Assembly (NCBI GenBank): GCA_964456475.1
Contig: CAYVZI010000006.1
Span: 7,074-71,073 of the forward strand
Reading direction: 5' to 3'
Source: an uncultured Candidatus Saccharibacteria bacterium
GTDB taxonomy: Bacteria > Patescibacteriota > Minisyncoccia > Phycocordibacterales > UBA9973
DNA length: 64,000 nt
Within the stretch, counting starts at the first letter, position 1. Each line of letters opens with the position of its first letter. The notes under the pieces were generated by a model. The model searched no databases. It saw only the letters and a list, made by a program, of their open reading frames with translations, and was not told where the DNA came from. Positions 38,482 through 39,387 of this stretch are shown piece after piece. The position numbers and the translations under genes are program-made.

Positions 38482-39387
38482 CTATTGTGCTCCCGTCAAT
38501 TTCGAAATAGCAGTCGCCATGTATCCAGTCACGTCATCATACATTTTGAGTCCTGCCACTTCTGCCACAGTAAACCAGCGCACATCATCAAGTCCTCCAG
38601 AATCATTTTTAAGAGTTACAGGTACGTATGATGACTCACCAAGAAAGAATATGACATGCTTGCGAATCTTGCCTTTTGTCGGATGATTGGCAACATATTC
38701 ACTCTCACCAATCTTGTCCACAACTTGTATATCAAGATTTGTTTCTTCTTTTATTTCACGAACAGCCGCCTGTTCTGGAGTCTCTCCTTCCTCAACTCCT
38801 CCTTTAGAAAGGGTCCAATAGCCGAAAATATCATGCACAAGCGCAAAGTAGAGTTCATCACCGTTTCGTGCGTAGATAAGCGCTCCAGCTTTTTGCTCAA
38901 TCGGAAGCGTAGTGATGTCCACATCTTCGTTTTTCTTTTGACGCTTTGATTTCTGATCCTTACCTGGCTCGCCAATTTCTTTGTAGACAGCACCAAGCAC
39001 ACCGTTGATGAATCGTGATGAACTATCACCGCCGAATGTCTTTGCGAGTTCGATTGCTTCATTGATAGCAACTTTCGGTGGAACTTCGTTATGGTCACCA
39101 AAAAGGAGCTCGCCGAGACCCATGCGCAAAATATTGCGGTCTACGGCATTGATCTTTTCTACTGGCCATTCCGGTGCAGCCTTGGCAATGATTTGGTCGA
39201 TAATCTCTCGTTTGTCGATGACAAAACCGAGAATTTTCTTCATAAAAGCAATATCCTCATTTCCTGGTGCAAATTCCCCTTCGTTGCGTTCAAGCATAGA
39301 AGCAGTACCCTCTGTTGGATATTGTTTAAAATCCCACTCAAAGAGTGTTTGAAGAACTATTGATCTAGAAAGATGACGATTTGCCAT
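38482..39387 (-). CDS. nusB: NusB-Nudix fusion protein: N-terminal antitermination factor NusB fold fused to a C-terminal Nudix hydrolase
   Basis: 301 aa. N-terminus LQTLFEWDF...[15 protein letters not shown]...[28 protein letters not shown] (NusB). C-terminal Nudix box [23 protein letters not shown]. Confidence 0.75.
   Translation of the reverse strand: [301 protein letters not shown]

What the first reader, a model, noticed from the sequence alone, without database searches (positions are those of the whole stretch)
38482..39387. NusB fused to a Nudix hydrolase domain
Seen: residues 1-145 carry the NusB fold motifs ([51 protein letters not shown]). Residues ~190-300 carry a canonical Nudix box ([23 protein letters not shown]). 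Established: NusB is an rRNA antitermination factor. Nudix enzymes of the RppH type decap 5'-triphosphate or NAD-capped RNA. Inference: a covalent fusion would bring an RNA 5'-end pyrophosphohydrolase to the nascent rRNA/antitermination complex. This is an unusual architecture. The gene is in the conserved rnc...rpmF neighbourhood.
Basis: partly seen in the sequence, partly recalled or inferred. Interest (0 to 1): 0.55.

Follow-up and report, generated by a model that had tools for sequence, protein, structure and literature searches.

The report
NusB fused to a Nudix domain
This is a real single gene, standard in a large group of ultra-small uncultured bacteria (Parcubacteria/Paceibacteria), that joins the rRNA transcription factor NusB to a Nudix domain; the domain's closest studied relative strips protective groups from RNA 5' ends, though many relatives have lost its catalytic residues.

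Summary
**Observation: confirmed.** Window 38482-39387 (- strand) is one uninterrupted 301-aa ORF.
- Residues 7-136 match Pfam NusB (E 4.6e-31) and pass the NusB equivalog cut-off (TIGR01951).
- Residues 168-279 match Pfam NUDIX (E 5.9e-19), with an intact Nudix box at 196-218.

**Not an artefact.**
- The identical protein was assembled in two other sequencing runs.
- The 120 best-scoring clusters (90% identity) all carry both domains.
- The 80 best GTDB species loci all encode the full-length fusion, nearly always in the order rpmF-fusion-rnc.
- Neighbouring Patescibacteria (Doudnabacteria, Saccharibacteria) have an unfused NusB.

**What the halves are.**
- The NusB half keeps the Phe that stacks on BoxA (F126, 100% conserved).
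- The Nudix half is not RppH, NudC or MutT by their models.
- Its closest structures are ApnA-hydrolase types, led by Aquifex aq_158. A 2026 paper showed aq_158 deprotects 5'-ppp, Ap4-, NAD- and FAD-capped RNA.

**Main caveat.** Only 36 of 108 non-redundant family members keep a canonical Nudix box. E211 is 42% conserved, while other Nudix-domain residues stay at 94-96%.

**Verdict.** The tethered RNA 5'-end or ApnA hydrolase idea is plausible for this organism but untested. Catalysis is probably not the family's core role. This is a new variant of a known kind, of moderate interest.

The parts
38482..39387 (-). Complete nusB-nudix fusion gene (301 aa plus TAG stop)
38974..39387 (-). NusB domain, residues 1-138. 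It includes R8, F16, D83 and F126, the equivalent of the BoxA U8-stacking Phe of Aquifex and E. coli NusB (F122); the F126 codon is 39010-39012.
   Evidence: Pfam NusB 7-136. TIGR01951 above its cut-off. Alignment to Aquifex and E. coli NusB read against PMC3177189. F126 and G129 are 100% conserved in the non-redundant set.
38893..38973 (-). Junction motif G139-E-P-G-K143 followed by a Lys-rich, predicted disordered linker (residues 139-165)
   Evidence: GEPGK occurs in 204 of 261 family members and the median linker is 27 aa. pLDDT is below 50 for residues 141-155. The same GEPxK motif precedes non-Nudix tails in related NusB proteins.
38497..38892 (-). Nudix-fold domain, residues 166-297, of the ApnA-hydrolase / aq_158-like type
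   Evidence: Pfam NUDIX 168-279. Foldseek best hit is 3I7U, TM 0.87 normalised to the target. phmmer hits to Ndx1, aq_158 and CT771 at 7.5e-9 to 1.2e-7.
38734..38802 (-). Nudix box [23 protein letters not shown] (residues 196-218). E215 aligns with aq_158 E51 and Thermus Ndx1 E50.
   Evidence: Read directly from the sequence. Alignments. E51A inactivates aq_158.
39487..39699 (-). rpmF (ribosomal protein L32), immediately upstream and probably in the same operon
   Evidence: Pfam L32p. Adjacent in 80 of 82 loci. Also adjacent to unfused nusB in Doudnabacteria and close to it in a Saccharibacteria-labelled contig.
37665..38375 (-). rnc (RNase III), immediately downstream
   Evidence: Pfam Ribonuclease_3 plus dsrm. 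Adjacent in 77 of 82 loci.
38376..38481 (-). Intergenic spacer between the fusion gene and rnc, made of two direct and two inverted copies of AAGTTTATAAAGT. It folds into a long AU-rich hairpin.

Best explanation
The gene encodes the organism's genuine NusB, extended at its C-terminus by a conserved GEPGK junction, a flexible linker of about 27 residues, and an ApnA-hydrolase-like (aq_158-like) Nudix domain.

**Shown**
- The architecture is real and is the standard form across Parcubacteria/Paceibacteria lineages.
- The NusB half retains the residues used for BoxA recognition.
- The Nudix half of this particular protein has a complete metal-binding and catalytic box.

**Inferred**
- NusB pairs with S10 on BoxA-type RNA in the rRNA antitermination complex. 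Because BoxA binds along the last NusB helix, the tether holds the Nudix domain next to the nascent transcript.
- In this lineage the domain most likely hydrolyses a terminal polyphosphate linkage. Candidates are 5'-ppp or 5'-pp RNA, Np4- or NAD-type caps on nascent RNA, or free dinucleoside polyphosphates.
- Across the family as a whole, the conserved job of the domain is probably binding or structural rather than catalytic. Two thirds of non-redundant members have lost a box residue yet keep the fold and a distinct conserved residue set: D186, W191, T192, K195, Y231, Y247 (F in the window protein), W271 and Y283.
For: - **Architecture and NusB orthology:**
- **Independent assemblies:**
- **Breadth:** the top 120 clusters all have two domains. 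63 representatives of at least 255 aa, nearly all covering both domains, reach down to 31% identity. The 80 best GTDB species loci are all full-length.
- **Conserved synteny:** rpmF-fusion-rnc.
- **NusB function retained:** F126 corresponds to AaNusB/EcNusB F122, which stacks on BoxA U8; F122D abolishes BoxA binding and antitermination. F126 is 100% conserved and D83 (equivalent to Aa E81) is 95% conserved.
- **Nudix type:** the closest structures are aq_158 (TM 0.87), Rv2985/MutT1, CT771 and Ndx1.
- **RNA activity of the closest relative:** aq_158 converts ppp- and pp-RNA to p-RNA and removes Ap4, NAD, FAD, m7G and sugar caps; its E51A mutant is dead. E51 aligns with window E215.
- **Box under selection in the close clade:** G196, E202, E211 and E215 are invariant in 22 sequences of 61-100% identity.
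- **House-cleaning covered elsewhere:** two other stand-alone Nudix genes lie in the window.
- **Domain still constrained after box loss:** Nudix identity in degenerate pairs is only 1-9 points below canonical pairs at matched NusB divergence in five of six bins, and 4 points higher in the sixth.
Against: - No activity, RNA binding or complex formation has been tested for any member.
- Identity to aq_158 is only about 26%. The aq_158 paper itself stresses that Nudix substrates cannot be predicted without a close characterised homolog.
- The Nudix domain is acidic (pI about 4.9), which gives no sign of a general RNA-binding surface.
- AlphaFold gives no confident interdomain arrangement (pTM 0.55).
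- The box is lost in 113 of 261 members, including relatives 80-84% identical to the window protein in which E214 is A, K, Q or V. Catalysis is therefore dispensable in many lineages.
- No rRNA operon or BoxA element is available in the window.
- I could not scan whole genomes for a second nusB.
Confidence: 0.45

Rival explanations
1. The Nudix domain is an ordinary small-molecule hydrolase (ApnA or nucleoside polyphosphate house-cleaning) that became fused to NusB during genome streamlining. The fusion gives co-expression, and the two activities are not coupled.
For: - The closest solved relatives were first characterised as Ap4A/Ap6A hydrolases.
- Both domains are acidic and no interdomain interface is predicted.
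- The linker is disordered.
- These genomes are small and compact, judging by the 644-kb complete chromosome among the loci.
Against: - The fusion has been kept across a deep radiation with a conserved junction motif.
- The domain is retained under constraint after the catalytic residues are lost, which a purely enzymatic passenger would not predict.
- Two stand-alone Nudix genes already lie within this 64 kb.
Confidence: 0.25
2. The Nudix domain is chiefly a non-catalytic module, even where the box is intact. It would act either as a nucleotide or RNA 5'-end sensor, or as a structural subunit of the antitermination complex. NrtR (a Nudix sensor in a transcription regulator) and SuhB (an enzyme-fold protein in the E. 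coli rRNA antitermination complex) would be analogies; the SuhB point comes from my own knowledge.
For: - Only 36 of 108 non-redundant members have a canonical box.
- E211 is 42% conserved, ranking 84th of 134 positions, while K195 and W191 are 96% and Y283 and W271 are 94%.
- Box status changes at least 37 times on the tree.
- The NrtR Nudix domain is Foldseek hit 9.
- Non-enzymatic Nudix domains are a recognised class.
Against: - In the window's own clade the box glutamates are invariant or nearly so, which points to selection for catalysis there.
- E215 remains 83% conserved even among degenerate members.
- No ligand or partner has been identified.
Confidence: 0.22
3. The N-terminal half is an RsmB-like guide domain with a NusB fold, targeting an enzyme to rRNA. 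It would not be the antitermination factor itself.
For: RsmB is a known case of a NusB-like domain fused to an rRNA-modifying enzyme, and RsmB models do hit residues 41-153 weakly.
Against: - The RsmB models score 20-48 bits against cut-offs of 269-540, whereas the NusB equivalog passes its cut-off.
- The BoxA-stacking Phe is invariant.
- The closest unfused relatives are ordinary NusB proteins of other Patescibacteria, in the same position next to rpmF.
- No other nusB lies in the window.
Confidence: 0.05
4. Assembly or sequencing artefact: two separate genes joined by a missed stop codon or frameshift.
For: None found.
Against: - The ORF is continuous.
- The identical protein appears in independent runs.
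- The same architecture occurs in many separate assemblies from many sources, with a conserved junction motif.
Confidence: 0.01

Closest known systems
NusB (TIGR01951 / PF01029), e.g. E. coli and Aquifex aeolicus NusB in the NusB-NusE-BoxA complex (PDB 3D3B, 3R2C)
   Same: All-helical NusB fold with pLDDT mostly 84-95. It passes the equivalog cut-off. It keeps the N-terminal Arg (R8), an aromatic residue at the EcNusB Y18 position (F16), the acidic residue equivalent to Aa E81 (D83), and the BoxA U8-stacking Phe (F126).
   Different: It carries a conserved GEPGK junction, a linker of about 27 aa and a Nudix domain of about 130 aa after the last NusB helix. Ordinary NusB proteins end there.
Aquifex aeolicus aq_158, called 'Ap4A hydrolase' and renamed 'Omnivore RNA pyrophosphatase' (PDB 3I7U/3I7V); also Thermus Ndx1 (Ap6A hydrolase), Chlamydia CT771, M. 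tuberculosis Rv2985
   Same: These are the best structural and sequence matches of the Nudix half. They share the W-x-x-x-K-G loop before the box, a full Nudix box, and the catalytic Glu (aq_158 E51, Ndx1 E50, window E215).
   Different: Identity is only 25-27%. Those enzymes are stand-alone, or fused to a histidine phosphatase domain in MutT1. Here the domain is tethered to NusB, and in most divergent relatives the box is degenerate.
RppH (E. coli NudH; B. subtilis YtkD) and NudC
   Same: The proposed mode of action is the same: a Nudix hydrolase acting on a protected RNA 5' end.
   Different: It is not a member. Scores on all the RppH, YtkD and NudC models are far below their cut-offs, and none is among the top 30 structural matches.
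RsmB/Sun 16S rRNA methyltransferase
   Same: This is a precedent for a NusB-fold N-terminal domain covalently linked to an enzyme that works on rRNA.
   Different: The NusB-like part of RsmB is a paralog and its enzyme is a methyltransferase. Here the N-terminal half is the NusB ortholog and the partner is a Nudix domain.
NrtR-type and other non-catalytic Nudix domains
   Same: A Nudix fold used as a ligand-binding module in a transcription factor. The NrtR Nudix domain is Foldseek hit 9, and loss of box residues is common in this family.
   Different: NrtR pairs the Nudix domain with a DNA-binding winged helix and senses ADP-ribose. No ligand is known here, and the window protein keeps a full catalytic box.

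Membership tests
NusB (transcription antitermination factor) | Sequence matches the curated equivalog model above its trusted cut-off | tested here: met
   TIGR01951 scores 122.9 bits against 88.35. Pfam PF01029 scores 108.4 against 23.1.
NusB (transcription antitermination factor) | BoxA-contacting residues of the last helix, especially the U8-stacking Phe (Ec/Aa F122) | tested here: met
   Window F126 aligns with F122. Its role is described in PMC3177189. It is 100% conserved in 108 non-redundant family members.
NusB (transcription antitermination factor) | Heterodimer with S10 (NusE), binding to a BoxA element in the rRNA leader, and antitermination activity | not testable with these tools
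   Indirect evidence only: an aromatic residue (F16) at the EcNusB Y18 interface position. No rRNA operon lies in the window, and the E. coli BoxA consensus is not enriched.
NusB (transcription antitermination factor) | It is the only nusB in the genome (orthology rather than paralogy) | tested here: inconclusive
   No second NusB lies in the 64-kb window. Unfused NusB proteins of other Patescibacteria occupy the same position next to rpmF. Whole genomes could not be scanned.
Nudix hydrolase superfamily (PF00293) | Nudix fold plus the GX5EX7REUXEEXGU box | tested here: met
   PF00293 scores 68.9 bits against 21.1. The box at 196-218 is complete except that the final G is N. The fold is predicted with pLDDT mostly 85-95 over most of the domain.
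Nudix hydrolase superfamily (PF00293) | Catalytic box conserved across the orthologous family | tested here: not met
   The box is canonical in 148 of 261 members and in 36 of 108 non-redundant members. E211 is 42% conserved. The window protein itself is canonical.
ApnA-hydrolase / aq_158-like Nudix group | Closest structural and sequence similarity, with the catalytic Glu equivalent to aq_158 E51 and Ndx1 E50 | tested here: met
   Foldseek rank 1 is 3I7U, with TM 0.87 and E 6e-10. phmmer gives 2.2e-8. E215 aligns with E51.
ApnA-hydrolase / aq_158-like Nudix group | Hydrolysis of ApnA and/or protected RNA 5' ends | not testable with these tools
   This needs an enzyme assay. Activity is known only for aq_158 itself.
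RppH (RNA pyrophosphohydrolase; E. coli type and B. subtilis YtkD type) | Match to the equivalog models above their cut-offs | tested here: not met
   NF001936 scores 30.7 against 118. NF001938 scores 29 against 116. NF001935 scores 24.8 against 259. TIGR02705 scores 22 against 154.4.
NudC (NAD-capped RNA decapping / NADH pyrophosphatase) | Match to the equivalog model | tested here: not met
   NF001299 scores 24.7 against 158. NudC structures appear only at Foldseek ranks 34-48 with low TM scores.
RsmB | NusB-like N-terminal domain plus an RsmB/F methyltransferase domain | tested here: not met
   NF011494 scores 47.9 against 319. There is no methyltransferase domain.

The most novel reading that the evidence does not exclude
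In Parcubacteria/Paceibacteria the rRNA antitermination complex has a built-in RNA 5'-end module. [quoted passage not shown] In the many box-degenerate lineages it would have become a 5'-end- or nucleotide-binding pseudoenzyme that is a structural subunit of the complex.
Probability: 0.15. Interest if true: 0.75.

Novelty: new variant of a known kind. Interest (0 to 1): 0.5.

Why it matters
NusB is one of the most conserved bacterial transcription factors and is normally a bare 140-aa helical protein. Here a whole major lineage of ultra-small bacteria has welded an enzyme-type domain to it for a long evolutionary time.

- **If the domain acts on nascent RNA 5' ends,** this would be the first case of a 5'-end-deprotecting enzyme built into an antitermination complex.
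- **If it is mainly non-catalytic,** it is a clean natural series of enzyme-to-pseudoenzyme transitions, with at least 27-37 changes in one orthologous family.

Either outcome is directly testable with recombinant protein. It also bears on annotation: public records call these proteins simply 'NusB', which hides half of the protein.

Tried and rejected
- **Genome scan with the divergent alignment A2:** I repeated it with A1. One of the two search patterns is a general NusB motif, so the '586 relatives' total may include unfused NusB proteins. I rely only on the 80 listed loci, which are all full-length.
- **AlphaFold database search (afdb50):** the library was not available, so UniProt/AFDB naming of the architecture was not checked.
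- **Split genes:** Nudix-only and NusB-only representatives first looked like split genes. The Nudix-only ones start at internal Met positions ('MPIEKK...', 'MGEP...'), so I read them as contig-edge fragments and rejected them as evidence.
- **Pre-fusion neighbour:** I looked for a Nudix gene next to unfused nusB in Doudnabacteria, Saccharibacteria-labelled and other Patescibacteria contigs and found none. Only the rpmF linkage is shared.
- **E. coli BoxA consensus in the window:** 6 hits against 8.5 expected, so no signal.
- **Rfam:** no RNA family anywhere in the window.
- **Literature:** searches for NusB+Nudix, NusB+CPR names and Nudix+CPR names found nothing on this fusion. The Nudix clan review never mentions NusB.
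- **Papers not available:** the aq_158 structure paper is not held and the CT771 paper was not found. I therefore could not map the family's conserved non-box residues onto known substrate contacts.
- **Direction of change:** ancestral-state direction for the box could not be resolved. The midpoint root gives 'degenerate', but a single-nucleotide reversal (V to E) is possible.

Full report
**1. Observation**

Window 38482-39387 on the - strand is a single 301-aa ORF with no internal stop. The domain scores are:
- Pfam NusB, residues 7-136: E 4.6e-31.
- Pfam NUDIX, residues 168-279: E 5.9e-19.
- NCBIfam NusB equivalog TIGR01951: 122.9 bits against a cut-off of 88.35.

The Nudix box at residues 196-218 ([23 protein letters not shown]) fits GX5EX7REUXEEXGU, except that the last G is N.

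That is excluded on three grounds:
- The identical protein was called on independent assemblies of two other sequencing runs, with the same neighbours.
- The 120 best-scoring database clusters (62-100% identity, 269-321 aa) all carry both Pfam domains.
- The 80 best GTDB species-representative loci all encode the full-length fusion in one frame.

**2. Distribution**

- An exhaustive search of 1.84 billion representative proteins found 130 clusters at E <= 1e-30.
- 63 of the listed representatives are at least 255 aa, and nearly all of them cover both domains. They reach down to 31% identity.
- Named loci are Candidatus Nomura-, Kaiser-, Giovannoni-, Zambryski-, Vogel- and Ryanbacteria, Paceibacterota/Paceibacteria, Minisyncoccia and 'Parcubacteria group'. 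One is a complete 644-kb chromosome. NCBI taxonomy places Nomurabacteria in the Parcubacteria group of Patescibacteria.
- Many loci are labelled 'uncultured Candidatus Saccharibacteria' by one large MAG submission. I treat that label with caution.
- The nearest unfused NusB proteins (PF01029 only, 137-189 aa) belong to other Patescibacteria, such as Candidatus Doudnabacteria. In the Doudnabacteria and Saccharibacteria-labelled contigs nusB also lies just downstream of rpmF, but no Nudix gene or rnc lies beside it in any of the three lineages examined.
- The rpmF-nusB linkage is therefore older than the fusion, and the fusion marks a sub-clade of the CPR.
- Within that clade the order (dnaE-rnhB-)rpmF-fusion-rnc(-smc) is nearly universal: rpmF in 80 of 82 loci and rnc in 77 of 82. 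The neighbour identities are confirmed by Pfam.

**3. The NusB half**

I aligned it to Aquifex NusB and verified the numbering against residues named in PMC3177189.
- Window F126 corresponds to F122, which stacks on BoxA U8. The E. coli F122D mutant loses BoxA binding and antitermination.
- Window D83 corresponds to Aa E81, which hydrogen-bonds U8.
- From the coordinate offsets of the E. coli match, F16 sits at the position of EcNusB Y18 in the NusE interface, and R8 at R10.
- In 108 non-redundant family members F126 and G129 are 100% conserved, E93 is 99% and D83 is 95%.
- No second NusB lies in the window.

I conclude that this is the functional NusB ortholog. S10 and BoxA binding are inferred, not shown.

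**4. The Nudix half**

- It fails every curated subfamily model: RppH, YtkD, NudC, MutT, NudI and others are all far below their cut-offs.
- An AlphaFold model (mean pLDDT 84.6; linker 141-155 disordered; pTM 0.55, so no confident domain packing) matches Aquifex aq_158 'Ap4A hydrolase' 3I7U best, with TM 0.87.
- The next matches are Rv2985/MutT1, Chlamydia CT771 and Thermus Ndx1. The non-catalytic NrtR Nudix domain is at rank 9. Sequence search agrees.
- A 2026 paper showed that aq_158 converts 5'-ppp and 5'-pp RNA to 5'-p. It also removes m7Gp3, Ap4, NAD, FAD and sugar caps regardless of sequence, and its E51A mutant is inactive. E51 aligns with window E215.
The same paper warns that Nudix specificity cannot be inferred without a close characterised homolog, and identity here is only about 26%.

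**5. The unexpected part: the catalytic box is often lost**

- In the window's close clade (22 sequences of 61-100% identity) G196, E202, E211 and E215 are invariant.
- Across 261 full-length family members only 148 have a canonical box (E202, R210, E211, E/D214, E215).
- The share falls with divergence: 54 of 62 at >=80% identity to the window protein, 33 of 73 at 50-60%, and 3 of 29 below 40%.
- In the non-redundant set it is 36 of 108.
- E211 is 42% conserved, ranking 84th of 134 domain positions. By contrast K195 and W191 are 96%, Y283 and W271 are 94%, and T192, G168 and D186 are 91-92%.
- Even relatives 80-84% identical to the window protein have E214 replaced by A, K, Q or V.
- Box status changes at least 37 times on a neighbour-joining tree, against about 85 if it were randomly distributed.
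- The domain is not decaying. At matched NusB divergence, Nudix identity between box-degenerate pairs is 1-9 points lower than between canonical pairs in five of six bins, and 4 points higher in the 40-50% bin.
- The function that keeps the domain attached to NusB therefore cannot be classical Nudix catalysis in most lineages. In this organism's lineage catalysis appears to be maintained.

**6. Other features**

- The junction motif GEPGK (residues 139-143) is present in 204 of 261 members, and the median linker is 27 aa.
- The same GEPxK motif precedes Lys-rich tails in some related NusB proteins that lack a Nudix domain. It therefore belongs to the NusB end rather than to the Nudix domain.
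- Both domains are acidic, with pI about 5.
- The window holds two further stand-alone Nudix genes, so generic nucleotide house-cleaning does not depend on the fused copy.
- Consensus scans suggest a possible operon rnhB-rpmF-fusion-rnc-orf137. A promoter-like site lies at 40566-40539 and a terminator-like hairpin at 37215-37187. This is weak evidence only.

**7. Mechanism and rivals**

My best reading (confidence about 0.45) has three steps:
- NusB works as usual with S10 and BoxA.
- Because BoxA lies along the last NusB helix, the linker of about 27 residues keeps the Nudix domain close to the nascent transcript.
- In this lineage the domain hydrolyses a terminal polyphosphate linkage: ppp-RNA, Np4- or NAD-type caps, or free ApnA. 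Across the family as a whole it serves mainly as a binding or structural module.

The rivals are:
- An uncoupled small-molecule hydrolase fused by genome streamlining (0.25).
- An essentially non-catalytic sensor or structural module even here (0.22).
- An RsmB-like guide domain (0.05).
- An artefact (0.01).

**8. Novelty**

Databases already hold these sequences with both Pfam domains, but name them only 'NusB'. I found no paper that mentions the fusion. It is a new variant of known kinds (NusB and ApnA-hydrolase-type Nudix), not a new class. I score interest at 0.5. The architecture is a genuine, clade-wide and testable surprise for the transcription and RNA-decay fields, and the repeated loss of catalytic residues adds a second question. 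The function, however, remains inferred.

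Noticed in passing
window 27331-27361, 32152-32284, 38389-38475: The 13-nt motif AAGTTTATAAAGT occurs 11 times with at most one mismatch, against 0.17 expected. It forms three intergenic clusters of direct and inverted copies. The cluster at 38389-38475 makes up most of the spacer between the fusion gene and rnc and folds into a long AU-rich hairpin (-24.5 kcal/mol, z -4.0). The one at 32135-32300 encloses a GC-rich core (-50.3 kcal/mol, z -4.9). The motif is found only in same-species contigs (L001, L002) and in none of the 80 other species loci. 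A long dsRNA stem directly upstream of the RNase III gene could be an RNase III target, but that is speculation.
   Followed up: partly
window 19524-19994 (-) and 47568-48047 (-): Two additional stand-alone Nudix genes of 157 and 160 aa (PF00293 E 9e-17 and 1e-14). The first is MutT-like by weak NCBIfam hits. Together with the fusion that makes three Nudix domains in 64 kb of a small genome.
   Followed up: partly
window 34912-37152 (-): The SMC homolog is only 746 aa, and the SMC_N model spans residues 1-729. It is much shorter than the SMC proteins of over 1100 aa that I recall from other bacteria, which implies a shortened coiled coil.
   Followed up: no
family members P0123 (358 aa), P0144 and P0125 (351 aa); not in the window: Some fusion proteins carry a third C-terminal module after the Nudix domain, for example 'DLSGMNLTELKAIAKAKGLKGYSTLNKTDLLKLLSE'. 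This resembles the Rho N-terminal / SAP-like helix-hairpin motif, a resemblance I recall from memory and did not test.
   Followed up: no
loci L085 (Doudnabacteria, 4797-5447) and L088 (4429-5498): Unfused nusB in other Patescibacteria also lies directly or closely downstream of rpmF (L32). The rpmF-nusB linkage therefore predates the Nudix fusion. No Nudix gene or rnc lies beside it there.
   Followed up: yes
window 1-64000: No Rfam family reaches its gathering score anywhere in the 64 kb: no tRNA, rRNA or riboswitch.
   Followed up: no
window 37198-37611 (-) and 40584-41024 (-): Two ORFs of 137 and 146 aa flanking the operon have no Pfam match. The 137-aa ORF looks hydrophobic, like a membrane protein, and is followed by a terminator-like hairpin at 37215-37187.
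   Followed up: no
loci L004, L006, L007 and many others: Many full-length fusion loci are titled 'uncultured Candidatus Saccharibacteria bacterium' (one large TPA MAG series). Their proteins nevertheless score among those of loci titled Nomurabacteria or Paceibacterota. The label is probably generic rather than a true Saccharibacteria assignment.
   Followed up: no
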